Translations under genes and position numbers: made by a program
Assembly: GCA_963678355.1 (NCBI GenBank)
Contig: OY782823.1
Location: 1,056,800 to 1,120,799, forward strand
Source of the DNA: Acholeplasmataceae bacterium
GTDB taxonomy: Bacteria; Bacillota_I; Bacilli_A; Acholeplasmatales; Acholeplasmataceae
Direction: 5' to 3'
DNA length: 64,000 nucleotides
Shown: one piece after another, positions 22,696-64,000 of the stretch
Position numbering within the stretch: the stretch's first letter is position 1
Layout of the letters: every line of letters starts with the position of its first letter
The notes under the pieces: model-generated
Told to the model about the DNA's origin: nothing
Databases searched by the model: none
Seen by the model: only the letters and a program-made list of their open reading frames with translations

Positions 22696-22895
22696 AAAAA
22701 ATAAAAACCATGGCAAAAGACATGGTTTTAATAACGAACGCTTCTGCCCCTCCGTAAATCAGCGCAATCTTCAATCATTGGGCAATGATTGAGAACAGTC
22801 ATATGTCTATTAAACATATGCCCAGTATCAAATAGATACTTCGGCACACATTCCTTTCCTTGGAAGTACTCTTAATGTATGCAGCCTCTTAATTT
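22696..22895 (-). ncRNA. Lysine riboswitch (L-box) with intrinsic terminator in the leader of the lysA-dapL operon
   Basis: Minus-strand leader reads AAGAGGCTGCATACATTAAGAGTA...GGAAAGG...GTGTGCCGAAG...GACTGTTC...TTGAAG..GCGCTGATT. Compare the B. subtilis lysC L-box elements AGAGGTGC, AAGAGTA, GTCGCCGAAG, CTGTCA, TTGGAGGGCTATC. It ends in hairpin AAACCATGTCTTTTGCCATGGTTT plus TTTTATTTTTT, directly before the lysA RBS. Confidence 0.65.
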
Positions 22896-22950
22896 ACAGT
22901 GATTTAATTTTCAAGTTATTTTAACATAAGTATAGTTAATTGTCTACCTT

Positions 22951-24202: not shown

Positions 24203-24276
24203 TGGAGGCCTCAAACGGATTTGAACCGATGATCAGGCAGTTGCAGTGCCTTGCCTTACCACTTGGCTATGAGGCC
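24203..24276 (-). tRNA. tRNA-Cys (anticodon GCA)
   Basis: Reverse complement GGCCTCA-TA-GCC-AAGTGGTAA-GGC-A-AGGCA-CTGCAAC-TGCCT-GATC-ATCGG-TTCAAAT-CCGTT-TGAGGCC-TCCA. Cloverleaf with 7-bp acceptor stem and GCA anticodon in a 7-nt loop. One T-T mismatch in the T-stem. Encoded CCA. Confidence 0.8.
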
Positions 24277-53003: not shown

Positions 53004-55154
53004 TTATGCGTTAGCTTCGTAATCAGCTACAACAGCAGCTCTTAACTCTTGAGTCATTGGAGTTGCAGAAACAATAATGTTTTTGAACTTATCTGAAGTT
53101 AAACCATAAGCAGCTTTACCTTTTTGGTAAGGAATTACTTTAGAAACTACTGGACTAATTGAAGTTGTAGTTCTCCAAGGAATAATGATTGCAGATACGA
53201 AGATTGCATCATATTCTGCTAATGCTTCAGCAGCATATCTTTCATCAGTTCTTGTTGGGTCAGTAATTGCTACAGCAGCTTCGTATAAGTCACGGTAAGA
53301 ACCCATAACTTCTTCAGCGATTGCATCTTTAGCAGCTTGAGAAGCTTCGTCACCAACTAAACCATATTGTTCGTAGAAATCACCTTCGATAGTGATTGTA
53401 TGTAAGTAAGTTTTTGGATCGGCATAGTCAGGACCCCAACCACCACCAAATGATAAGTCATAGTTTGAAGTAACCCAAGTCCATTCAGATCTTAATGCAT
53501 CTGATGAAGCAACGTTAAATCTTACATCAACGATTGGATTATCACTATCTGGACCAACTGCGTCTAAGATAGCATCGAACATAGCTTTTTCATATGCTTC
53601 AACTGTAACACTTCTTGATGCTACATAGTCAATTGTAATAGGGAAATCTGATTCAGCAAGACCGTCAGCTAATAATGCAGCTTTTGCATCTTCAAAATAT
53701 TGAACAGCTTTAGCGATATCATAAACAGCATCTTCACCTTGGATTGAACCTGATAGAGATACACCTGAAGTACCTTGAGCAGCATTGTAAGCTTCATCAA
53801 CATAGTCAGCATAATCTTTACCATTATATGCAGTTAATTCACGGTTAGTATAACCTCTCATTAATAACATTGATGGATCTGGTGCAGAAGCCATTCTAGC
53901 AATGAAATCCATACCATAAGTGAAACCTAATCTGAAGTCAGCATTTAAGATTGCAGCTTTAGTAGCAGCTTGTTGTGCAGCTGTTTTAGCTGGAACATCA
54001 GCACCGTTCTTAGTAAAGTCTGAACCATAATCATAAGTATCACGATCAAAGTTCCATACACCAGCGTATACAACATCACCAATTGTTAATACACCGTTAG
54101 TTTCAACGTTTGCAGGGTTTGCAACTGTACCAGTACCATCAGCACCAGTAACATATTTTTCCCATCCAGCTTCATCATCTTGGCTTACTGTGAAACCATC
54201 GATTAAGTCAGCTTCATACCATTCACGTAATGTAGATGGTGTTGCAGCATTTGGAACATATGTTAAGTTAACATAGTCTACATATACATGATCGTAATCA
54301 TAATAGTAACCATTTTTAACCATTTCGAATTTGTTTTCAAATACGTGACTTGTAATTCTAAATGCACCGTTAACTAAGATATAGTTTTCAGTAACACCGA
54401 ATGCAGTACCAACTTGTGCTAAATAATCAGCGTTTGCTGGTAAGAATGGTGAATAAGTTAATGCTGATAAGAAGTAAGGTGCTGGTTCAGTTAAAGTATA
54501 TTCTACTTCATATTTAGAAACAGCCTTAATACCAACGTTAGCAAAATCAGCTTCTTCACCTGCAGCTAATGCATCAAAGTATTCTCCTGAACCTTTAATA
54601 AATCCAGTAACAATAGTAGATGTTTGAGAACCGTTAAGTGGATTTAGAACATATTCTAAACCAGTAACGAAGTCTTGTGCAGTAACTTCTGCAAATGGTT
54701 CACCAGTTAAGTTATCAACCCATTGAACACCTTCTTTTAATTGGAAAGTGTAAACTTGATCCCCGTCTGCATTTTCAGACACTTTATAACCTACTGCTAA
54801 AGCTCCAACAATGGCACCATATTTGTCGTTTTCTACTAAACCATCAACCATGTTAGTATAGAACATTGAATTCCATTGTGAGTTTGCTGTTAGGTAATTG
54901 AATTTTTCTTCAGTTACTTCTGATGTGTAATATGTATTGTAAGTATCAGCAACTTCGAATTCTTCATCTCCAACCTTATATACTCCGTCTTCCACAAGTG
55001 GATTAGAGTATTCATTAGCTAATGATGTATAACCATCAGCAAGCGCAGTTTCTTGATCATACATTTTTTCAATTGCTGATCCGCTACCGCCGCCACATGC
55101 CACTAGGACAAATGCTGCTAGTAATACAACTAAGATACTAAAAAATTTCTTCAT
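53004..55154 (-). CDS. oppA: Oligopeptide ABC transporter substrate-binding lipoprotein OppA (large, 716 aa)
   Basis: Signal peptide plus lipobox LVACGGGSGS. SBP family-5 features. First gene of the opp operon. Confidence 0.75.
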   Translation of the reverse strand: MKKFFSILVVLLAAFVLVACGGGSGSAIEKMYDQETALADGYTSLANEYSNPLVEDGVYKVGDEEFEVADTYNTYYTSEVTEEKFNYLTANSQWNSMFYTNMVDGLVENDKYGAIVGALAVGYKVSENADGDQVYTFQLKEGVQWVDNLTGEPFAEVTAQDFVTGLEYVLNPLNGSQTSTIVTGFIKGSGEYFDALAAGEEADFANVGIKAVSKYEVEYTLTEPAPYFLSALTYSPFLPANADYLAQVGTAFGVTENYILVNGAFRITSHVFENKFEMVKNGYYYDYDHVYVDYVNLTYVPNAATPSTLREWYEADLIDGFTVSQDDEAGWEKYVTGADGTGTVANPANVETNGVLTIGDVVYAGVWNFDRDTYDYGSDFTKNGADVPAKTAAQQAATKAAILNADFRLGFTYGMDFIARMASAPDPSMLLMRGYTNRELTAYNGKDYADYVDEAYNAAQGTSGVSLSGSIQGEDAVYDIAKAVQYFEDAKAALLADGLAESDFPITIDYVASRSVTVEAYEKAMFDAILDAVGPDSDNPIVDVRFNVASSDALRSEWTWVTSNYDLSFGGGWGPDYADPKTYLHTITIEGDFYEQYGLVGDEASQAAKDAIAEEVMGSYRDLYEAAVAITDPTRTDERYAAEALAEYDAIFVSAIIIPWRTTTSISPVVSKVIPYQKGKAAYGLTSDKFKNIIVSATPMTQELRAAVVADYEANA

Positions 55155-55603
55155 TCTCTTCCTCCTAAGATTTTAAATCCATTATCTCTCCAATAATGAT
55201 TTTAATTTATTATACTTAAGTAAAAATCACATGTCAATGAGAAAGTACAATTTAATGGTTAAAATTGCCAATGATAACGCTTTCTATACAGCAAAGTCAT
55301 TTTTTTGGTGTATTTTTTCCAAAAAATTATGTTTATTTTTAAAAAAAGTACAGTATCTCATCCATATTAAATCCGAATTATACGATGTTTTTAACAGAAA
55401 ATCAATTGTAAATATATTAATATATTTTCAATATAAGCTAATAAAGAGCTTCTTATATTGTAATATTCATCAGTATCTTCAAAGCAAATTCTTACATATC
55501 CCTATTTTTTACAAAACATATGTAAAAAAAAGTCTAATGCTTAAAGCACTAGACTTGGTCACTATTTTTTAAAGATGTATAAAATATTGTGTGGTAGAAG
55601 ATA

Positions 55604-57154
55604 GGCTTTAAAAAATAGTGTGGTATACCACCTAATTTTGGAAAGCTCTATTTTTTTGTATAAAAAAGAAACCCTGTCTTATACTATAGTTAACTGTCAT
55701 AACTTAAAGAAAGGAGGGTTTCATGGATTATGATACCATAAATATATTACATCTAGAAACAATTAGAGACAAGATTCAATTATTAGAAACGAGATTTGAA
55801 GAAAACCAATTAATCATAGAATTACGATTTTATAAACAAGAAATGATCTGCCCAGTATGTGGATCTGATCACATTAAATTTCATCGCTATTTATATAAAC
55901 ATATTATTCATTCAATCTCCACACATCAAAAAAATATGATTAGATTACATCAAAGAAGGTACCAATGCAAGGTATGTAAGAAAACATTTAGTGAATCAAA
56001 TCCATTATCGAATAGCAATGAAAATATTAGTTTGTATACTAAGATATCAATATTAAATTATTTAAAAGATTATAACCATACCTTCACATCAGCAGCAAAA
56101 CATTACTACATATCTATTCAGTCAGTTATTAATATATTTGATTCATATGTAGAATCGAAAAGACGAAAGTTACCTAAAGTCATCAATATTGATGAAGTCT
56201 TCACTTCTAGAACACATGATTATAAATACGCATGTGTGTTATATGATTTTATAGACAAGAAAATCATTGATGTCTTACCAACCAGACATAAAAACTACTT
56301 GATTAGATATTTCTCTAGAATACCTAAAAATGAGTTAGATCAAGTTGAAGTGGTGGTGATGGATATGTGGACTTCCTATAAGGAAGTCGTGAATCTATGT
56401 ATCCCAAAAGCAAAGATAGCTGTTGATTCATTTCATTTGATCAGAACGCTTAATGAAATCATTAAACGTCTTAGAATTGACATGATGCATAAATACAAGC
56501 AAGACAAAAGTAAACCTGTACATGAAGATATGTATTATTACATGTTAAAAAAATTTCATTACTTCTTCGTTAAAAACTATGAAGATATCTATGATGGTAA
56601 GATTAAGATTCATAAGACTGGCCAGTACTGGCATAAATCAGATATCCTTCATTATCTATTATCCATTGATGATGATTTAAAAGAAGCCTATATGTTAAAA
56701 GAACGGTATCGAGAATTTAATTTAACAGCCGCCTATGATACGTGTGATGATGAGTTAAACAACTTAATCCATCAATTTAGAAATCATAAAATCAAAGCAC
56801 TGCGATCATTTGGCAAGACACTCATTAATTGGAGAGATGAAATTAAGAATTCATTTTTAGTCTATGACAGTCGAAGAATATCAAATGGGCCTATAGAATC
56901 TGTTAACAATAAAATCAAAACTGTGATTAAGACATCTAATGGTATAAAGTCATTTAATAGACTCAGGAATAAGATTATGTATTCAATCAATAAAGACGTT
57001 CCAATTAAAAACAAATAAATAGAATAGTTATGGCAGATAAAAAGGCACTCGTCTGAGTGCCTTTACATTACCACATAATTTTAGAGAGGTCACATTGACC
57101 ACACTATTTTGGAAAGGTCTATTTGGTGTTTACCACACTATTTTTTAAAGACCC
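55604..57154 (+). mobile_element. ISL3-family insertion sequence (~1.55 kb)
   Basis: Left end GGCTTTAAAAAATAGTGTGGTATACC (55604-). Right end reverse complement GGGTCTTTAAAAAATAGTGTGGTAAACACC (ending 57154). About 24/26 identical inverted repeats. Single transposase ORF. Confidence 0.75.
55723..57018 (+). CDS. ISL3-family transposase
   Basis: 431 aa. N-terminal zinc-finger (CPVCGS...C..C) and DDE_Tnp_ISL3 core. GGAGGG RBS. Confidence 0.9.
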   Translation: MDYDTINILHLETIRDKIQLLETRFEENQLIIELRFYKQEMICPVCGSDHIKFHRYLYKHIIHSISTHQKNMIRLHQRRYQCKVCKKTFSESNPLSNSNENISLYTKISILNYLKDYNHTFTSAAKHYYISIQSVINIFDSYVESKRRKLPKVINIDEVFTSRTHDYKYACVLYDFIDKKIIDVLPTRHKNYLIRYFSRIPKNELDQVEVVVMDMWTSYKEVVNLCIPKAKIAVDSFHLIRTLNEIIKRLRIDMMHKYKQDKSKPVHEDMYYYMLKKFHYFFVKNYEDIYDGKIKIHKTGQYWHKSDILHYLLSIDDDLKEAYMLKERYREFNLTAAYDTCDDELNNLIHQFRNHKIKALRSFGKTLINWRDEIKNSFLVYDSRRISNGPIESVNNKIKTVIKTSNGIKSFNRLRNKIMYSINKDVPIKNK

Positions 57155-57205
57155 TTTTTTAATTGTTTTTTCATAACATTAATAAAATGCGACATACGCA
57201 TCTCT

Positions 57206-57550
57206 TTAATTTGAATTATTAATCATTTTATCTATGATTTCTTTCATGTATTCCCAATCCCTAATTTTGGTTTGAAGTAATGTTTTTCCTTTGGTGGTTA
57301 TCGCATAGTATTTTCTTTTCTTACTAGAATCACTTTCAACCCAATAAGATGTTAAATAACCATATTGAACTAATCTTTTGAAACTGGTGTAAAGCGTTGC
57401 TTCTGTAAGATTGAAATTTCCTTCAGTCAATGCTTCTATACGTTTATTTATTTCATATCCATATGAATCTTTTTCGTTAATTATACTTAATAAGATCATA
57501 TCAGTATGTCCCCTTAAAGCATCACCGTTTAAATTCATTCTCTTTTCCAA
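57206..57550 (-). CDS. PadR-family transcriptional regulator
   Basis: 114 aa. Winged-helix PadR signature (GYEI...I..L..GY). Confidence 0.8.
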   Translation of the reverse strand: MEKRMNLNGDALRGHTDMILLSIINEKDSYGYEINKRIEALTEGNFNLTEATLYTSFKRLVQYGYLTSYWVESDSSKKRKYYAITTKGKTLLQTKIRDWEYMKEIIDKMINNSN

Positions 57551-58659
57551 TCTCTAATGTAATCTATAAATAAAATAATTACAAACAATATACCCCATAT
57601 TAAGTAAAATGGTGCAATAATACTTTCTGTGACTTGGATATTATCCGCAATATAACATATTAACAATACTGCGATTGAAACAAAGATATTAAATATCGGT
57701 AATATCTTACGATACTTGATGATTTTAAATAAATTAAGTATAGTAACAGTCAAATAAAGAACTATCAATATGCCTTCTAATATAACTATAAACCTAACTA
57801 TATTTCTTTGATAGAAAACATAAGTACGTAACGTATGGGTCAAATCATAGATAAGGAAAATAATAGCTAAACCATTTAATACAGGATAAAAATATTTACT
57901 ATTAAAAATTCTTTTTCTCTCATATGACTTATTTGATAAAAAGTTTTTTGCCTTCATGCCTATTGATTCAACATCATCTTGACCTGATAATTCTCTATAT
58001 TTTCTCATTAACTTTCGATATATCAATATAAATATTGATCCAATGATAGCAAGTATGATAACGAAAACACCGGCTGAAAATAAATAGATTGCATACAGAT
58101 CATCAATATCTATACTACTTAAAGTATCAGCAATAGTGATTGTTATTAACATACTATAAATTATCGAAGTAATCATTAGAGATAAAGATAGTGCCCAAAA
58201 TGTGAAATTTGTTTTCATATAAGAAAATGTCTTATTTAAAAACAACTGATATTTATCAATATCATATTCTTCTCTTTCTGAAAATTTGCTTAATTGATAT
58301 AGGTATACTGCACCTACTGCATATAATGTAATACTTATACCAACTATAACGATACCGACAACGTTACTAATCATTGTAGCAATTAAACCAATCACTGATA
58401 AAATCGTAGCAGAAATAAGCATCATTTCCGCGATTTCTGGCTTATATGATGCTTCACTTGATTCTTCTTCTATGAAGTCGCCAATTGTCTTAATTGTTTC
58501 AATATAAGCAAACTCTTTATCACTAGTTTTTTGATAAAGTTCATCGTATCTCTCAGATAAATTCGAGATAATCTCTTCACTCTTTTCTAGATGATCTTTC
58601 GATCTATCATTTCTTAGTTTAAAATTTACATAATCTCTTATTTTATTATACATAGCCAT
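57535..58659 (-). CDS. Membrane protein with N-terminal HAAS/DUF1700-like domain (PadR-associated sensor)
   Basis: 374 aa. Soluble helical N-terminus (~75 aa) followed by about 6 TM helices. 16-nt overlap with the downstream padR, the typical PadR-HAAS pair arrangement. Confidence 0.5.
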   Translation of the reverse strand: MAMYNKIRDYVNFKLRNDRSKDHLEKSEEIISNLSERYDELYQKTSDKEFAYIETIKTIGDFIEEESSEASYKPEIAEMMLISATILSVIGLIATMISNVVGIVIVGISITLYAVGAVYLYQLSKFSEREEYDIDKYQLFLNKTFSYMKTNFTFWALSLSLMITSIIYSMLITITIADTLSSIDIDDLYAIYLFSAGVFVIILAIIGSIFILIYRKLMRKYRELSGQDDVESIGMKAKNFLSNKSYERKRIFNSKYFYPVLNGLAIIFLIYDLTHTLRTYVFYQRNIVRFIVILEGILIVLYLTVTILNLFKIIKYRKILPIFNIFVSIAVLLICYIADNIQVTESIIAPFYLIWGILFVIILFIDYIRDWKRE

Positions 58660-58795
58660 TCCCCTTACCTAATCTGTTTAGGTATATTATATATTTATAA
58701 ACAAAATCTGTCAATATAGTAAATATATTTATCCCATAGAAAAAAGTATCTTATTACTACCAGACTTCGAAATACACCGTATTATAAAAAGAAAA

Positions 58796-58832
58796 AAGGT
58801 TTGATACAATCGCATCAAACCTATGTTTTTAA
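58796..58832 (-). terminator. Terminator downstream of the abiE module (bidirectional T-runs)
   Basis: ggtttgatacaatcgcatcaaacc hairpin flanked by A6 and T5. Confidence 0.5.
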
Positions 58833-58980
58833 TTTGAGTTGTATGACCTATTTTGATACAAACTTGTTTTTTGCGATACGCCATCTCATATATTGTTGGC
58901 TTATCATTGTTGCAAAGGTAAATTTGCATTCAAACTTGGTACAAAATCGGTCCATCATCACCTATTATTTGATGCTTGTA

Positions 58981-59982
58981 TCAACCGTTGATTTGCTTTT
59001 CCAATTTCCTAAGAGAATCCATTATCTCATTAAATGAGGGTTTATCCCCAAACAACATATCTTGCATCGCTTTATAATCTTTTTCAAGTTCATCAATGCG
59101 ATACTTATCAGGAACAAGTTTTAATGTTCCTTTCTTAGCTAAATCATATCTTGCCCATCCTCTTGGATAGAATTTCTTTTTAAATTCAACTACTTTATCA
59201 AGGAGATCAATATCTTCTAGCAGACCATCTAACGGCTTGCCTTTATACATCATATACAAATCATAGTAATGCCTTGAATATCGGTCAGGAATCTTTGATG
59301 ACCTCGGACGATATGCCTCATGATGAAGTATAGTTGCTTTCTCCCAAAACGTTCTTGTTGGTTTCACTGTAAGCACTTCTGAAAATGATTGATTCATGAC
59401 ATTAGGATAATAATCATCGATGTATGGACTAACTCTAATAACCTCTGATGGTGTCCACGCTGCCAGTGGTCCAAACTCGAGTCTTATCGTATTCAAGATT
59501 GAATAATTATTATACAACCTTGGATACTTAAAGACAATTATGTTTTCCTCAGCTTTATCGCATTCCATATCCACATCAAATCCTAGCAAATCACTTAATC
59601 CTGATTTGATTTCATCGAGTAGAGTGTTTTTTATAAATGCTGCAGCTTTCTTATTAATCGCTTGATTGTACCTATTTTGTTGAGTATTACTTCTATTCTC
59701 ATAAGGTTCATTTTCAGGAATACTAAAAACAGTCCAATCTAGTATTAGGTCAATATCTTCTGAAAATCTTTTGATCAGAGAATATCCTTTTGATAAACTA
59801 GTTCCACCTTTGAATGTGAATGCTTTCTTAAATTTTGATTTATTGAATAGGTAATCTAGTACTAATACAACCCAAAAGTCCTTTTCAATAATTGCTTCAT
59901 TCACTTTCATTTTATTAGCTGTGTTTCTAAATATCAATTCGCGTTCTTTATCCTTCAATTTGGCTAATTCATACATGTTCAC
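58981..59982 (-). CDS. AbiEii/AbiGii-family nucleotidyltransferase toxin (type IV TA / abortive infection)
   Basis: 333 aa. FKGGTSLSKGY...RFSEDIDL motif of the DUF1814/AbiEii nucleotidyltransferase fold. Confidence 0.8.
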   Translation of the reverse strand: MNMYELAKLKDKERELIFRNTANKMKVNEAIIEKDFWVVLVLDYLFNKSKFKKAFTFKGGTSLSKGYSLIKRFSEDIDLILDWTVFSIPENEPYENRSNTQQNRYNQAINKKAAAFIKNTLLDEIKSGLSDLLGFDVDMECDKAEENIIVFKYPRLYNNYSILNTIRLEFGPLAAWTPSEVIRVSPYIDDYYPNVMNQSFSEVLTVKPTRTFWEKATILHHEAYRPRSSKIPDRYSRHYYDLYMMYKGKPLDGLLEDIDLLDKVVEFKKKFYPRGWARYDLAKKGTLKLVPDKYRIDELEKDYKAMQDMLFGDKPSFNEIMDSLRKLEKQING

Positions 59983-60587
59983 ACCTCGAATATCTCTCTT
60001 ATTGACTCATAGATCCACGCAGCAGAATGTTTTGACTCCTTTAAGATTCTTTTAATTGTGGACTCATCAAATTTCGCTTTTATTTGATCTTTGTGCATTT
60101 CTGTAATATTCCCTCTACCAAGAGCCTTGATGGCCTGAATCAATATTGCTGTATCTTCAGACGTATCATAAATCAGTCGATTATTACTATGTTTAAATAT
60201 AAGTTCAATATTCCCAATTGAATATGTCTTATATGGGCCAGAACTAACATATATGTACTGCGCTGGCACTTGTGTTGATAGTCCAAGATAATTTAATGCA
60301 CTTGTACCACTTGGACATATTTTCCAATTATGTGCTCTAGCTAATGCCTGAGCGACTTCATTAATAGACGGAGCTCCATATTCTTGTAAGATTGCACTAT
60401 TCTCGGGAATATCATAAACACCTGAAATAATACGCCTTATCTCGTTATTTTTCTCCATTCTTTCAAGATTTTTATTTATCGTCTTTATATTACCTAGTTC
60501 AATGAAGTCTTTCGCTGTGAAAGTACTGAGCGTTTTTTGTTCAATCTCTTTCTTTATCCTTTCAGCAAATGATTTATCATTATTCAT
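59979..60587 (-). CDS. AbiEi-family antitoxin/transcriptional regulator
   Basis: 202 aa. N-terminal wHTH with the RxISGVY motif. 4-nt overlap with the toxin gene. Palindrome TTGCAAATGTTTGCAC at 60634-60649 in its promoter. Confidence 0.65.
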   Translation of the reverse strand: MNNDKSFAERIKKEIEQKTLSTFTAKDFIELGNIKTINKNLERMEKNNEIRRIISGVYDIPENSAILQEYGAPSINEVAQALARAHNWKICPSGTSALNYLGLSTQVPAQYIYVSSGPYKTYSIGNIELIFKHSNNRLIYDTSEDTAILIQAIKALGRGNITEMHKDQIKAKFDESTIKRILKESKHSAAWIYESIREIFEV

Positions 60588-60689
60588 ATTGTCACCCCTA
60601 TGTCGTTATTATTATATACTTTTTGCGACATAATTGCAAATGTTTGCACAAAGTATATGATTACTTTGACTCAATTGATTTATCATATG

Positions 60690-61183
60690 AAAACAATCTA
60701 TTACGTGCATCTTTATTCTATACACTTCTTTTTACTGGAGGTCGAGCAACTGAAACTGTTGAACTCATGAAAAGTGATGTTGACATAGAAAATAGATTTG
60801 TCGTTTTTAGAGTTGTTAAAGGAAATAAAGAAAGAGCTGTACCTATTTCAGATACAGCTGCAAAGTATTTAAAACTTATGATGGATTCGCATCCATATGA
60901 TTACGTATTTCATAACTCACTTAAGCATAGAAAGGCTGTTTACAATGATGCTAGGTATTTAGCTAAGTTTCTAAGAAACACGCTAGAAACTCCATATTTT
61001 TCATGTCATATGTTACGTCATACATTCGCAACTACATTAGTGAATAATGGTGAAGATCTTGCTATTGTTCAAGACATATTAGGTCATGAAGATGAACGTA
61101 CTACAAGAATTTATGCAAAGATGAATTTTAAACATATTCAAAATGTTTATAATCTATCATTGAAAACTATTGATTTATTATGA
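60690..61183 (+). pseudogene. Tyrosine recombinase/integrase fragment (catalytic C-terminal domain only, 5'-truncated)
   Basis: Contains the R...K...HxLRHT...R...Y catalytic motifs (SCHMLRHTFATT, RTTRIYAKM). About 110-aa N-terminal core-binding domain missing. The abiEi start lies directly upstream on the opposite strand. Confidence 0.7.
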
Positions 61184-61219
61184 ATTTATTATTTTAATAA
61201 TGATTTTTATTACTAAACA

Positions 61220-61456
61220 TTATTTTTGAATAGATTCCAGTGCTTTTCTTGTTTTTATCATTTCTAATAAAATTATTGCTGCTACTAATACTAAAATTGT
61301 AAATCCGCCTTTTAAAGTGCTAATAACTAAAACTAGAAGTGTTTCAGTATTAACATGACTCACATTTCCTGATAGTAAAAGGACTACAGATATAAGTACA
61401 AGTATTCCTAATACAGTTTGAATAAAAGTTATTGTTTTCATATTTATTCCTTTCAA
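61220..61456 (-). CDS. Small two-TM membrane protein (78 aa)
   Basis: Two long hydrophobic helices. ATGA overlap with the upstream ORF. Confidence 0.4.
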   Translation of the reverse strand: MKGINMKTITFIQTVLGILVLISVVLLLSGNVSHVNTETLLVLVISTLKGGFTILVLVAAIILLEMIKTRKALESIQK

Positions 61457-62865
61457 TAATCAAAAAATATATTAATCGTGTTTATCCTATGTCCATCAGG
61501 TTTAATGGTTAATGTACCTGTAATATCAAGGTACCCTGCAACACCATTAGATGCTACAGCAGTAACAATAGTTACGACTAATGCAAATGAATCAAAACCA
61601 AGTCGCATATGTATATAATCCGCCCAAACTGTTATAGTATAATCACTATATACACCATTTGAGTCAAAGTTATTTACATCAGCTTCTAAAGTGATTTTAT
61701 AGCCTGTTACTTCTGCTTCTAATACTTTCATTCCATTATAATAAAAATAATCATTAATTGGTTTAGTATAATAAATAGAATCGGTTGTAAGTGGATCAAT
61801 TTCTTCTCCATAAGCATCTTTCATATCATATGAGCCATCAAGTGCTTGAGTATAAACTATAGTGTTATTAGATACTTTCAATGTCTCATCACTTGAATAA
61901 TTAGCATAATTACCTTGAACTATGTGAGTTTTGACCAATTCACTGTTTGGAGTTGTATAATAGATTTCTTTTGTAAATAATATTGAGTTATACACCAATG
62001 ATAAAGAATTACTATATCCGATTGCCATATAATCATTCCAATGATTGATTGGCTCATAGTGAAAAATAATTGTTGTAGATAAATGGGCACCACTGTCTGC
62101 TTCTGGGTCAAAATAAAATGTTGTTGTATGTGTAGATATTTCACCAATATACTGTGCAGAAGTTTCTATATAATTATATAATTCTGTTACAGTAAATTCT
62201 GTGATGTTTGATACTTGTTCTCCTTCAACATAATTTTCATTATAATCCACAATAAGTTCTCTATAAGGTACAGTATAAGTTATTGAAGAAGTAGGAATTG
62301 AAGTGTAAGTTCCATCTGTTGCATATACAGTAATTGTATACGTTTCATTTGGAGTTAAATTAATTGTAGATAAATCAAACATATTGTTACTGGTATTATA
62401 TATTACAGAACCAACTTTTACAATATAACTTGTAGCTTGAGAAACTATATCCCATGTAAGAATGTTATCGGTTATATTAACATTAGTAGGATTATAGATT
62501 CCGCTACCGCCACTTCCATCTCCTAAATTATCAAAATCGAATCCTATTGCTGAATAAATACTAATCTCAGATGCAGTATCAAGTATCTCATCGACTAAAG
62601 CATCATTATCAATTTCTTCCTTATTTTATTCTGATTTTTCTATTTCTTTTTTAGTTTCATCTAATAATTTATCAACCTTTTCTTTCAATTGAATTTTATA
62701 TTTTGCTTTTTTTTCATCTATCTCAGTATTTGTTTTGCCTTTATCATATGTTTCGTAATATGTTGTGGTAGTAATTTCTTGTAGTGCATTTGATGCACTA
62801 ACATTTAATGAAGCAGCACTAAAAGTACATAAAAAAATTAACGTAATAATAAAAATTCGTTTCAT
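61453..62865 (-). pseudogene. Secreted Y/T-rich surface-protein gene interrupted by an in-frame TAA stop
   Basis: The 79-aa signal-peptide ORF (62626-62865), its TAA at 62626-62628, 82 open codons, and the 309-aa ORF (61453-62382) are all in one frame. The region after the stop has FN3/Ig-like repeats (TSYIVKVGS / TYTITVYATDGTYTS). Confidence 0.5.
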
Positions 62866-62953
62866 AATATCCCCCCAATATTGTTTTTTTCTATTATCAC
62901 ATTAATTGCTTAAAATGTCAAATTTAATCAATTTTTTAATTTTTACCCTCATT

Positions 62954-63185
62954 GAAAAAGCTGTACCTATTTCAGATACAGCTGCAAAGTATTTAAAGTT
63001 TATGATGGATTCACATCCTTATGATTACGTATTTCATAATTCACTTAAGCATAGAAAGGCTGTTTACAATGATGCTAGATATTTAGCCAAGTTTCTTAGA
63101 AACACGCTAGAAACTCCATATTTTTCATGTCATATGTTGCGTCATACGTTTGCAACCACATTAGTCAATAATGGTGCAGATTTAT
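62954..63185 (+). pseudogene. Second, shorter integrase catalytic-domain fragment (near-identical copy)
   Basis: About 93% nucleotide identity to 60826-61056 over ~230 bp. Lacks both the start and the C-terminal Tyr region. Confidence 0.6.
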
Positions 63186-63849
63186 CTATATCAGGAAAAT
63201 TAATTATATCATCATTTCCGATTTCTCTTAACTCTGCTAGATTCGATATAATTTCACTGTATGCATCATCAAGTTTAAGTTTTTTTAGCATTTTATCTCC
63301 ATAATATAAACCTTTATCTTTTAAATAGGTAAAGTTCAAATTATTAAATCTTGTCTCATAATAATTCTTGTTTTTAACTACATTTTCATCAATAAACCAC
63401 ATATATCCATTAATTTTTTTTGTTGGATGTAATTCATGCAATACCTCAAGTTTTAATTCAAAGTTATCAAATTGCCCAGTTTTTTTTGTACTGTCATGAT
63501 TATCTCTAATTTTTTGTTCTATTAGATAGATCTCATTATTGTATTCAAAACGTTGATCAAAACTGAGTTTTTTTTCTTTACCCTTCACAATATGAGTGAT
63601 GTTTTTTTCTAAGTTGGTGTATCCATTTTTGCCTAGATAATCAGTAAACACTTCTTCTAAAATATCACCTAATTTGATTTCATTACTTTGTGTAAGATGT
63701 TGAATAATTTTGGTTCTAAAGCTTGTTAATCTAAAATCACTACAAAACATAGAGGGTTCATCAATCATTTTTTTTATTGCTTGTTGATACAATTTTCCCC
63801 CAACATTAATATGTTTTTCAACAATTTCTTTGAATTCTTCATATATCAC
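63142..63849 (-). CDS. Hypothetical protein (235 aa), possible PD-(D/E)xK-type nuclease
   Basis: No strong motif. SFDQRFEYNNEIYLIEQK gives a D...(E)xK pattern of weak significance. Located in the mobile/defence island next to the integrase fragment. Confidence 0.35.
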   Translation of the reverse strand: MIYEEFKEIVEKHINVGGKLYQQAIKKMIDEPSMFCSDFRLTSFRTKIIQHLTQSNEIKLGDILEEVFTDYLGKNGYTNLEKNITHIVKGKEKKLSFDQRFEYNNEIYLIEQKIRDNHDSTKKTGQFDNFELKLEVLHELHPTKKINGYMWFIDENVVKNKNYYETRFNNLNFTYLKDKGLYYGDKMLKKLKLDDAYSEIISNLAELREIGNDDIINFPDIDKSAPLLTNVVANV

Positions 63850-63867
63850 ACTAATCTCTCCTATTTC

Positions 63868-64000
63868 ATTTTGTATATTAAAGGTAATATTGCAATAGCA
63901 ACATCTATTCCTCTATCAAATAAACTATAGATAATGTTCTTTGCTTTATCCCATCTTTGATTTTTTGGATACTGTTCAATAATATTCTTCATTTGTTCTA
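63868..64000 (-). CDS. Partial ORF running off the window end (C-terminal 39+ aa)
   Basis: Minus-strand frame MKNIIEQYPKNQRWDKAKNIIYSLF... ends with TAA at 63868. Frame still open at 64000. Confidence 0.3.

What the first reader, a model, noticed from the sequence alone, without database searches (positions are those of the whole stretch)
55155..64000. Mosaic accessory island downstream of opp
Within about 9 kb, in order:
- An ISL3 copy.
- A PadR-HAAS sensor pair.
- An AbiEi/AbiEii module.
- Two fragments of a tyrosine-recombinase gene.
- A small TM protein and a nonsense-interrupted secreted protein.
- A possible nuclease, and a further ORF running off the window.

This looks like the decayed remains of an integrative element carrying defence cargo. 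Uncharacterised cargo genes in such islands are common places for new defence functions.
Basis: partly seen in the sequence, partly recalled or inferred. Interest (0 to 1): 0.55.

Follow-up and report, generated by a model that had tools for sequence, protein, structure and literature searches.

The report
Decayed defence island beside opp operon
The last 9 kb of the window are an ordinary, largely decayed patch of mobile DNA (an insertion sequence, an intact AbiE abortive-infection pair, a broken restriction enzyme and two dead recombinase copies) whose recombinase sits, in related Acholeplasma-type genomes, at the centre of variable anti-phage gene islands next to a tRNA-Gly gene.

Summary

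- **Nuclease:** it is an HpyAIV-family type II restriction enzyme that has lost its C-terminus.
- **Recombinase fragments:** they are overlapping pieces of two different gene copies (92% nt identity over 236 nt), not two halves of one gene.
- **HAAS label:** neither profile nor fold searches could confirm it.
- **Position:** the region lies 5' of oppA, not downstream of opp.

Full-length relatives of the recombinase (76-86% identity, about 290 aa) were seen in five independent loci. In each they sit in a variable island. The four loci that reach the right border abut a tRNA Glu-Arg-Pro-Gly cluster (L006 shows only tRNA-Gly at its contig end). The islands carry GmrSD/NsnA, HNH, AbiH, AriA-like ATPase, SieB, RnlA and R-M genes. 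One locus (L007) repeats the window's pattern of recombinase, cargo, recombinase fragment, cargo.

The window therefore most likely holds the wreck of two successive arrivals of this island family, further rearranged by an ISL3 element that lacks a target duplication. AbiE and the membrane-protein/PadR pair look intact. Both recombinases, the REase and the secreted-protein gene are dead. No att repeats or cassette sites were found. The right end lies beyond the window, and no close relative exists to delimit the island. I rate this a new member of a known kind, of modest interest.

The parts
55155..55603 (.). Spacer between oppA and the IS. It holds the oppA promoter (55237-55209, -), a minus-strand terminator hairpin (55556-55530), and abutted IRR-like and IRL-like relics of ISL3 ends (about 55556-55600).
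   Evidence: Promoter and terminator scan, repeats, sequence.
55604..57153 (+). ISL3-family insertion sequence, 1550 bp. Its intact 431-aa transposase gene is at 55723-57018. It has no 8-bp target-site duplication.
   Evidence: NF033550 246 bits against cutoff 180, PF01610 E 1e-50. IRs and flanks.
57206..57550 (-). PadR-family winged-helix regulator of 114 aa. It is the second gene of a two-gene unit.
   Evidence: PF03551 E 4e-22. It is 65-74% identical to the PadR next to the membrane-protein homologues in L012-L014.
57535..58659 (-). 374-aa membrane protein with an N-terminal three-helix domain and about eight TM helices. It is the first gene of the unit and is joined to PadR by an ATGA overlap. 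It has a 12/12 sigma-70 promoter at 58714-58686.
   Evidence: Family of 78 representatives. The pair is conserved in L012-L014. AF2 model pLDDT 86.8. No Pfam or PDB match. Promoter.
58797..58822 (-). Terminator hairpin after AbiEii. It matches 30 of 34 nt of the hairpin directly 3' of tRNA-Gly in L007.
58981..59982 (-). AbiEii nucleotidyltransferase toxin, 333 aa, apparently intact.
   Evidence: PADLOC PDLC02289 E 4e-105 over the full length; PF08843 E 1e-36.
59979..60587 (-). AbiEi antitoxin/regulator, 202 aa, DUF6088 type. It overlaps AbiEii by 4 nt. A promoter-like site lies at 60640-60611, right at the junction with recombinase piece A.
   Evidence: PADLOC PDLC02226 E 2e-56; PF19570 E 1e-32. 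Promoter scan.
60632..61183 (+). Recombinase piece A. It is the 3' two-thirds of a tyrosine recombinase gene (catalytic domain, aa ~112 to the end). The N-terminal domain and the promoter/operator are missing.
   Evidence: PF00589 E 6e-31. Alignment to full-length P0123-P0128. tblastn. Operator absent.
61220..61456 (-). 78-aa two-TM protein with no family match.
61453..62865 (-). Pseudogene of a 470-aa secreted protein (signal peptide, charged linker, FN3-like segment, unknown C-terminal domain). A TAA at 62626-62628 interrupts it. A promoter lies at 62921-62893.
   Evidence: Translation, stop codon, promoter. No homologues in phage or viral collections.
62954..63189 (+). Recombinase piece B. 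It is an internal 236-nt fragment (aa ~167-256) of a second recombinase allele, 92% identical to 60830-61065.
63142..63849 (-). HpyAIV-family type II restriction endonuclease gene, truncated at its 3' end. The REase-derived part is about 63190-63849; the last ~13 codons are the antisense of recombinase piece B.
   Evidence: NF045832 200.7 bits against cutoff 160, profile positions 1-231 of 269. PADLOC REase_II E 1e-38, positions 1-212 of 290. Sequence.
63861..64000 (-). 3' end (46 codons) of an ORF that runs off the window, 12 nt upstream of the REase start. I infer it is the cognate methyltransferase; this is not shown.
   Evidence: Translation. No family hit on the fragment.

Best explanation
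The region is the wreck of a tyrosine-recombinase-borne defence island of a type found in Acholeplasma-like genomes. Shown steps and inferred steps are marked below.

**The intact form (shown in relatives)**
- A ~290-aa recombinase gene carries its own promoter and a palindromic operator.
- It sits between two slots of oppositely oriented cargo genes, mostly anti-phage systems.
- Where the borders are covered, a small serine resolvase lies at one end and an 89-91-aa HTH gene next to tRNA-Gly(TCC) at the other.

**What happened in the window (inferred)**
- Two such units arrived one after the other, by tandem integration or by recombination between recombinase alleles.
- One unit brought or later acquired AbiEi/AbiEii, plus the 78-aa TM and secreted-protein genes.
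- The other unit brought an HpyAIV-type restriction-modification pair.
- Later deletions and replacements did the following:
  - removed the 5' third and promoter of recombinase A, where the AbiE operon now abuts it;
  - reduced recombinase B to 236 nt;
  - fused recombinase B to the truncated 3' end of the REase gene.
- A nonsense mutation killed the secreted-protein gene (shown).
- An ISL3 element without a target duplication marks a further rearrangement on the oppA side (the missing duplication is shown; the rearrangement is inferred).

**Functional consequences (inferred)**
- The island can no longer move by its own recombinase.
- AbiE should still work as a type IV toxin-antitoxin abortive-infection module. 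AbiEi represses the operon and neutralises the AbiEii nucleotidyltransferase until infection.
- The membrane-protein to PadR pair is an autonomous, autoregulated membrane-signal switch. It may simply be a neighbour.
- The REase is probably inactive, which would leave at most an orphan methyltransferase.
For: **The recombinase family**
- Only 8 close members exist, 76-99% identical.
- Full-length members are ~290 aa.

**Context of intact members**
- Variable cargo on the opposite strand lies on both sides in L004, L005, L006, L007 and L008/L009.
- Cargo hits in PADLOC and Pfam (and the Pfam columns): PDC-M11A (E 2e-161), HNH, a TIR-like effector, type IV REase, NsnA/GmrSD, AriA-like AAA_15, DrmMII/MTase, AbiH, SieB, SocA/Panacea, RnlA, and MvaI/BcnI R-M.
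- L004 and L005 have flanks 98-99% identical but different cargo. Their recombinases are 77% identical and their resolvases 84%.
- In L004, L005, L006 and L007 the island abuts tRNA-Gly(TCC). Sequence similarity among these loci stops exactly at the tRNA 3' end.
- L007 shows the same layout as the window: recombinase, cargo, recombinase fragment, cargo.

**Decay in the window**
- document it.

**Not core genome**
- The nearest oppA relatives have unrelated neighbours.
- Composition is mildly atypical and mosaic.

**AbiE looks intact**
- It gives full-length matches to PADLOC models.
Against: - No att-type direct repeats, partial tRNA copies or cassette-border motifs were found in the window or in the relatives.
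- No resolvase, HTH or tRNA-Gly homologue lies within the window.
- None of the window's cargo genes occurs in the related islands.
- The right end is outside the window, so the link to a tRNA site is unproven here.
- The order of events is inferred only from breakpoints.
- The membrane-protein/PadR pair also occurs in one non-island-looking context (L014).
- GANTC is not depleted in the window: 169 observed against 151 expected. The R-M system has therefore left no compositional trace.
Confidence: 0.65

Rival explanations
1. The region is an unrelated patchwork. The genes are independent small insertions (IS, TA module, R-M, regulator pair) that accumulated in a permissive intergenic zone 5' of oppA. 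The recombinase fragments are just two more pieces of debris, not the backbone of an island.
For: - No att repeats were found.
- Composition differs between modules.
- The window's cargo is not shared with the related islands.
- The PadR pair occurs elsewhere on its own.
- The IS lacks a target duplication.
Against: - Two different alleles of the same rare recombinase lie 2.1 kb apart in the same orientation. Each has opposite-strand cargo on both sides, exactly as in L004-L008 and especially L007.
- Chance co-occurrence of two copies of an 8-member family is unlikely.
Confidence: 0.2
2. The region is a prophage remnant. The recombinase is a phage integrase, and the AbiE, R-M and surface-protein genes are lysogenic-conversion morons of a degraded temperate phage.
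For: - The recombinase hits phage integrase PHROGs (phrog_1 E 3e-32).
- SieB, a P4 cII-like gene and an HTH repressor-like gene occur in the related islands.
- The location at a tRNA gene is typical of prophages.
Against: - No structural, replication or lysis genes occur in the window or in any of the five related loci.
- There is no DNA or protein match in phage or viral collections.
- The islands are only ~7-11 kb.
Confidence: 0.1
3. The region is an active, integron-like or shufflon-like platform. The repeated recombinase segments and the conserved 25-nt inverted repeat inside the gene are recombination sites used to swap or delete cargo cassettes.
For: - Framework genes are conserved while cargo varies.
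- The inverted repeat AGCTGTACCTATTTCAGATACAGCT is kept in all alleles. The 5' breakpoint of recombinase piece B lies 5 nt from it.
- Synonymous divergence dips locally at this point.
Against: - Both window copies lack the N-terminal domain and the promoter, so no recombinase can be made here.
- Breakpoints of the extra fragments differ between the window and L007.
- No motif is shared at cargo borders.
- Synonymous divergence inside the repeated segment equals that outside it, 0.453 against 0.455.
Confidence: 0.04

Closest known systems
tRNA-adjacent integrative genomic islands / defence islands with a tyrosine integrase (compare E. coli integration hotspots and P4-like satellite hotspots)
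   Same: - A tyrosine recombinase is linked to variable anti-phage cargo.
- In relatives the island sits directly 3' of a tRNA gene.
- Strains with near-identical flanks carry different cargo.
- Copies occur in tandem or as remnants.
   Different: - No att direct repeats were detected.
- The recombinase lies in the middle of the island, between two cargo slots, rather than at an end.
- A serine resolvase and a short HTH gene form the other conserved parts.
- The host range appears limited to Acholeplasma-like genomes.
- In the window the recombinase is dead and no tRNA is in view.
AbiE (AbiEi/AbiEii) type IV toxin-antitoxin abortive-infection system
   Same: - It has the two-gene overlapping operon, with the antitoxin first.
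- AbiEii gives a full-length DUF1814/PF08843 nucleotidyltransferase match.
- AbiEi gives a full-length PADLOC match.
   Different: - The AbiEi is of the DUF6088 type and only weakly matches NCBIfam TAA_AbiEi (24.8 bits against a cutoff of 150).
- Its promoter sits at a junction with a recombinase remnant.
- Function was not tested.
HpyAIV (GANTC) type II restriction-modification system
   Same: - The REase scores above the NCBIfam equivalog cutoff.
- An upstream same-strand ORF lies 12 nt away, as expected for an M-R operon.
   Different: - The REase lacks about 38 C-terminal profile positions and ends in antisense recombinase sequence.
- The methyltransferase is not visible.
- Specificity was not tested, and GANTC is not depleted.
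HAAS-PadR two-component-like signalling dyad (10.1101/2020.09.24.301986)
   Same: - A standalone PadR wHTH is encoded next to a protein with an N-terminal three-helix domain fused to a multi-TM domain.
- The pair is conserved across genomes.
   Different: - No match to DUF1700, DUF1129 or DUF1048 was found by profile or fold search.
- The conserved motif is G-D-F rather than GxP.
- In this family the membrane protein comes first and PadR second.
ISL3-family insertion sequences
   Same: It has a full-length DDE_Tnp_ISL3 transposase with an N-terminal zinc ribbon, ~22-nt terminal inverted repeats and subterminal repeats.
   Different: - It has no 8-bp target-site duplication.
- Extra abutted end relics lie beside the left end.

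Membership tests
ISL3 insertion sequence | Full-length DDE_Tnp_ISL3 transposase | tested here: met
   NF033550 246 bits (cutoff 180), profile positions 2-369 of 370; PF01610 E 1e-50.
ISL3 insertion sequence | Terminal inverted repeats | tested here: met
   55604-55625 and 57132-57153. The 19-nt core has 0 mismatches, against 0.06 matches expected by chance.
ISL3 insertion sequence | 8-bp target-site duplication | tested here: not met
   The flanks read AGAAGATA and CTTTTTTA. This suggests a later rearrangement.
AbiE type IV TA / abortive infection | AbiEii (DUF1814) nucleotidyltransferase toxin | tested here: met
   PF08843 E 1e-36; PADLOC AbiEii E 4e-105, residues 1-332.
AbiE type IV TA / abortive infection | AbiEi antitoxin encoded immediately upstream in one operon | tested here: met
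   PADLOC AbiEi E 2e-56; DUF6088 E 1e-32; 4-nt overlap at 59979-59982.
AbiE type IV TA / abortive infection | Toxicity neutralised by AbiEi, and phage protection | not testable with these tools
   This needs expression and phage-challenge experiments.
HAAS-PadR dyad | Standalone PadR-like wHTH gene adjacent, with the pairing conserved | tested here: met
   PF03551 E 4e-22. The same pair occurs in L012, L013 and L014.
HAAS-PadR dyad | HAAS domain recognisable (DUF1700 / DUF1129 / DUF1048 profiles, or the 2O3L fold) | tested here: not met
   - 0 of 36 family members hit these Pfam models at E <= 0.01.
- The PDB profile searches found nothing.
- Foldseek against the PDB gave no match with E <= 0.001, for the full model or for the N-terminal domain.
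HAAS-PadR dyad | Three N-terminal helices with a GxP kink, fused to a multi-TM domain | tested here: inconclusive
   AF2 predicts helices 2-14, 23-45 and 48-61, followed by TM helices. G60 is invariant, but the motif is G-D-F, not GxP.
Functional tyrosine recombinase / integrase | Catalytic domain with the R..K..HxxR..H..Y residues | tested here: met
   Piece A matches PF00589 E 6e-31 and keeps GGRATE, KGNKER, HMLRHTFA, GHED and RIYA. Piece B lacks the Tyr region.
Functional tyrosine recombinase / integrase | N-terminal core-binding domain and its own promoter | tested here: not met
   The first ~112 aa are absent from piece A. The conserved operator TCCACAAnnnTTGTGGA is absent from the window.
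HpyAIV-family type II REase | Score above the NCBIfam equivalog cutoff | tested here: met
   NF045832 200.7 bits against a cutoff of 160.
HpyAIV-family type II REase | Full-length protein | tested here: not met
   It covers profile positions 1-231 of 269. The C-terminus is replaced by antisense recombinase sequence.
HpyAIV-family type II REase | Cognate methyltransferase | not testable with these tools
   Only 46 C-terminal codons of the upstream ORF lie in the window, and they match no family.
Integrative genomic island | Flanking att direct repeats / partial tRNA copy | tested here: not met
   None were found in the window or in L004-L007. The right end of the window's island is not available.
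Integrative genomic island | Location next to a tRNA/tmRNA gene | tested here: inconclusive
   This holds for relatives L004-L007, which abut tRNA-Gly(TCC). The only tRNA in the window is tRNA-Cys at 24203, and sequence beyond 64000 is unavailable.
Integrative genomic island | Absent from the same site in relatives, with variable content | tested here: met
   L001-L003 have unrelated genes 5' of oppA. L004 and L005 have near-identical flanks but different cargo.
Integron-like cassette platform | Repeated attC-like sites at cassette borders | tested here: not met
   No k-mer of 14 nt or longer is shared by three or more islands outside the framework genes.

The most novel reading that the evidence does not exclude
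The recombinase-resolvase-HTH framework next to tRNA-Gly in Acholeplasma-like genomes could be a previously undescribed, dedicated defence-gene platform. In this reading, cargo in its two slots turns over through the recombinase, possibly using the conserved inverted repeat inside its own gene. The window's uncharacterised occupants of those slots (the 78-aa TM protein with the secreted FN3-like protein, or the membrane-protein/PadR pair) would then be new exclusion or defence functions.
Probability: 0.08. Interest if true: 0.6.

Novelty: new member of a known kind. Interest (0 to 1): 0.3.

Why it matters
For the window itself, little: it documents how a small wall-less-lineage genome keeps an intact AbiE module while the vehicle that brought it decays.

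The comparison adds something more useful. A rare recombinase family marks a defence-gene hotspot at tRNA-Gly in Acholeplasma-like bacteria, a group whose anti-phage repertoire is hardly studied. Several cargo genes in the related loci have no defence-library hit:
- the L004 186-aa gene;
- the L005 302-aa and 198-aa genes;
- the L006 425-, 157-, 175- and 179-aa genes;
- the L007 574-aa gene;
- the L008 320-aa gene.

These are better candidates for new defence functions than anything in the window.

Tried and rejected
1. **Retrieving the source genome to read past 64000.**
   - The exact-match look-ups failed: OppA, the transposase, AbiEii, P0001 and P0122.
   - The genome exists as a 1.7-Mb contig, but its DNA is not retrievable.
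2. **Synteny with relatives.** The closest OppA is only 76% identical and there is no shared neighbourhood. Fine delimitation is therefore impossible.
3. **DNA similarity to plasmids and phages.** None was found.
4. **att sites.** There are no partial tRNA-Gly copies and no border repeats in L004, L005 or L007.
5. **Integron-like cassette sites.** No shared motif was found.
6. **An embedded functional element explaining the retained 236-nt recombinase fragment.**
   - Synonymous divergence inside the fragment equals that outside it.
   - Only a short dip occurs around a 25-nt inverted repeat, and only four alleles were available to test it.
7. **HAAS assignment.** Pfam on 36 family members, PDB profile searches, two AF2 models and two Foldseek searches all gave nothing.
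8. **GANTC avoidance as a trace of restriction.** None was seen.
9. **Identity of the off-window ORF.** The 46-aa fragment has no hit. No HpyAIV relatives were found in the plasmid, phage or viral collections to compare neighbours with.
10. **Homologues of the secreted protein in phage or viral collections.** None were found.
11. **Sub-threshold ncRNAs in the region.** The only hit was a chance pan-motif match inside a coding region.
12. **The afdb50 fold library.** It was unavailable.

Full report
**What is in the sequence**

The window has about 32% G+C and uses the standard bacterial code. The nearest relatives of its OppA are Acholeplasmatales, Mariniplasma and Izemoplasma MAGs at 69-76% identity. 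oppA (53004-55154) is on the minus strand, so the flagged region lies 5' of the opp operon, not downstream of it.

From left to right:

- **Spacer, about 450 nt.** It holds a perfect sigma-70 promoter for oppA and a minus-strand terminator.
- **ISL3 element, 55604-57153.**
  - Its transposase is full length.
  - Its terminal inverted repeats are about 22 nt long.
  - It has no 8-bp target duplication, and abutted relics of IS ends sit beside its left end.
- **Two-gene unit on the minus strand.** A 374-aa membrane protein (57535-58659) is followed through an ATGA overlap by a PadR regulator (57206-57550). A 12/12 promoter drives it.
- **AbiEi/AbiEii, 59979-60587 and 58981-59982.** The genes overlap by 4 nt, and both match PADLOC models over their full length (E 2e-56 and 4e-105).
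- **Recombinase piece A, 60632-61183.**
- **78-aa two-TM protein.**
- **470-codon secreted-protein frame** broken by one TAA at 62626-62628.
- **Recombinase piece B, 62954-63189.**
- **HpyAIV-family type II restriction enzyme gene.**
  - It scores 200.7 bits on NF045832 against a cutoff of 160.
  - It covers only profile positions 1-231 of 269.
  - It runs into the antisense of piece B.
- **Open frame leaving the window**.

The two recombinase pieces are not two halves of one gene. They overlap over 236 nt at 92% identity. They come from two different alleles.

**What the recombinase fragments are**

A search of 5.8 billion proteins found only 16 relatives. Eight of them are close (76-99% identity) and, where complete, about 290 aa long. 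Piece A lacks the first ~112 residues (the N-terminal domain). It also lacks the conserved promoter region with its palindrome TCCACAAnnnTTGTGGA, which all intact genes carry.

I fetched the genomic context of five intact or nearly intact members. In every case the recombinase is on one strand, and variable genes on the other strand flank it on both sides.

The variable genes are largely recognised anti-phage functions (and the Pfam columns):
- PDC-M11A (E 2e-161);
- HNH nucleases;
- a TIR-like effector;
- a type IV restriction enzyme;
- NsnA/GmrSD;
- an AriA-like AAA_15 ATPase with a partner gene;
- AbiH;
- SieB;
- SocA/Panacea;
- RnlA;
- a C5-methylase with a large HATPase protein;
- an MvaI/BcnI R-M pair.

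Three genes recur:
- the recombinase;
- a 182-185-aa serine resolvase at the far left (in L004-L007);
- an 89-91-aa HTH gene at the far right (in L004, L005, L006 and L008).

Further points about these loci:
- Directly after the right end lies a tRNA cluster Glu-Arg-Pro-Gly, of which L006 shows only tRNA-Gly before its contig ends.
- Similarity between L007 and the other loci begins exactly at the 3' end of tRNA-Gly(TCC).
- L004 and L005 come from two ~1.55-Mb genomes whose flanks are 98-99% identical.
- Between the resolvase start and the HTH gene, only the resolvase (84%) and the recombinase (77%) still align between L004 and L005. The cargo is different.

This is the signature of a horizontally exchanged island at a tRNA site.

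**Why the window looks the way it does**

L007 has the same peculiar layout as the window. It carries a frameshifted recombinase, three cargo genes, a second decayed recombinase fragment, and more cargo up to the tRNA cluster. Two recombinase alleles in tandem, each with its own cargo, are best explained by successive arrival of two islands of this family, followed by decay.

The extra fragments have different breakpoints in the window and in L007. They are therefore scars and not products of a precise site-specific reaction.

In the window:
- the AbiE operon and its promoter-like site (60640-60611) abut the truncated 5' end of piece A;
- the promoter of the secreted-protein gene (62921-62893) abuts the truncated 5' end of piece B;
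- the 3' breakpoint of piece B is fused to the truncated 3' end of the REase gene.

No resolvase, HTH gene, DJ-1 gene or tRNA-Gly is present in the 64 kb. Either the rest of the island lies to the right of the window, or the locus has been moved. The ISL3 copy without a target duplication is a plausible agent. None of the window's cargo recurs in the related islands.

Composition supports a foreign, mosaic origin only weakly. Most genes are 1.2-3.1 standard deviations below the window's gene G+C. AbiE has atypical codon use but normal G+C.

**The membrane-protein/PadR pair**

The 374-aa protein belongs to a small family of 78 representatives. Its homologues in Izimaplasma HR1 and in a metagenome contig are again followed, with overlap, by a PadR that is 65-74% identical to the window's. 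The pair is therefore a unit.

In Izimaplasma it lies beside a tmRNA gene and two tandem integrase units. In the other locus the neighbours look like housekeeping genes.

AlphaFold gives a confident model (pLDDT 86.8) with three N-terminal helices and about eight TM helices. This architecture, and the sequence pattern EEIIxNLxDRY...G..EE.AYIEAIK..GDF, resemble the HAAS domain as described in 10.1101/2020.09.24.301986.

The tests did not confirm that resemblance:
- None of the 36 members hits DUF1700, DUF1129 or DUF1048.
- The PDB profile searches found nothing.
- The Foldseek searches found nothing.
- The motif is GDF rather than GxP.

I therefore call it HAAS-like in architecture only. Most likely it is an autoregulated membrane-signal switch. 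It gave only marginal matches in the defence library (E 5e-4 and 3e-3).

**Other checks**

- No att repeats or partial tRNA copies were found.
- No motif is shared at cargo borders.
- A 25-nt inverted repeat inside the recombinase gene is conserved in all alleles, and the 5' breakpoint of piece B lies 5 nt from it.
- Synonymous divergence in the repeated segment is the same as elsewhere, 0.453 against 0.455, with only a short local dip from four alleles. I leave this as an unexplained detail.
- GANTC is the site of HpyAIV (from my own knowledge of that enzyme). It is not depleted in the window: 169 observed against 151 expected.
- The region has no DNA-level match in plasmids or phages.
- The REase and the secreted protein have no relatives in the phage or viral collections.
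- The REase also has no relative in the plasmid collection.
- The source genome is on record as a 1.7-Mb contig, but its DNA could not be fetched. The sequence beyond 64000 remains unknown.

**Verdict**

The region holds the decayed remains of an integrative defence island. It now links to a small, apparently undescribed family of tRNA-Gly-adjacent islands in Acholeplasma-like genomes.

- **Still likely functional here:** AbiE, the membrane-protein/PadR pair, the IS, and perhaps an orphan methyltransferase.
- **Dead:** the recombinases, the REase and the secreted-protein gene.

Nothing in the window points to a new kind of system. The more promising unknown genes are in the intact relatives. 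I rate it a new member of a known kind, interest about 0.3.

Noticed in passing
window 55556-55600: Abutted IRR-like and IRL-like relics of ISL3 ends lie just left of the intact IS. The IS itself lacks a target-site duplication. Together these suggest repeated IS activity or an IS-mediated rearrangement next to oppA.
   Followed up: partly
window 60835-60859 and 62959-62983; also L004 10537, L005 10537, L006 7038, L007 1962, L008 3588: A 25-nt inverted repeat AGCTGTACCTATTTCAGATACAGCT inside the recombinase coding region is kept in all alleles. Synonymous divergence dips locally there. The 5' breakpoint of recombinase piece B lies 5 nt upstream of it. Its meaning is unknown.
   Followed up: partly
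L005 2027-2181: A second, gene-less copy of the recombinase promoter/operator region (76% identical to the copy upstream of the L004 recombinase, L004 9846-9999) lies beside an ABC/FtsX transporter cluster. This hints that the cluster is former island cargo. L007 carries an ABC/FtsX fusion as cargo.
   Followed up: no
L004-L008, upstream of the recombinase start (e.g. L005 9894-9910): The recombinase leader is conserved. It has a palindrome TCCACAAnnnTTGTGGA at the -35 position, a TATAAT box and a hairpin before the RBS. The palindrome is probably an operator, perhaps for the island's HTH protein.
   Followed up: partly
L012 1483-7442 (Candidatus Izimaplasma HR1, CP009415.1): A tmRNA gene is followed by two tandem copies of an integrase plus 160-aa gene unit, and then by the membrane-protein/PadR pair. 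This is another tandem-integrase island.
   Followed up: no
window 58797-58822 and L007 11161-11194: The terminator hairpin after AbiEii matches 30 of 34 nt of the hairpin directly 3' of tRNA-Gly in L007. It could be a relic of an island border or a coincidence.
   Followed up: partly
L006 6011-6343: A fragment of a different tyrosine recombinase (about 29% identity) lies just upstream of the island recombinase.
   Followed up: no
L004 11860-12420; L005 7889-8797 and 10870-11466; L006 2143-3420, 7389-7862, 7852-8379 and 8480-9019; L007 4621-6345; L008 407-1846 and 1847-2809: These cargo genes in intact islands have no PADLOC hit, although Pfam labels three of them (SocA_Panacea, SieB, RnlA_toxin). 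Several sit next to known defence genes, for example the 198/206-aa partner of the AriA-like ATPase shared by L005 and L007. They are candidate new defence components.
   Followed up: no
window 22752-22898 (-) and 24203-24276 (-): A lysine riboswitch (70.6 bits) and a tRNA-Cys(GCA) gene. Both are ordinary features outside the finding.
   Followed up: no
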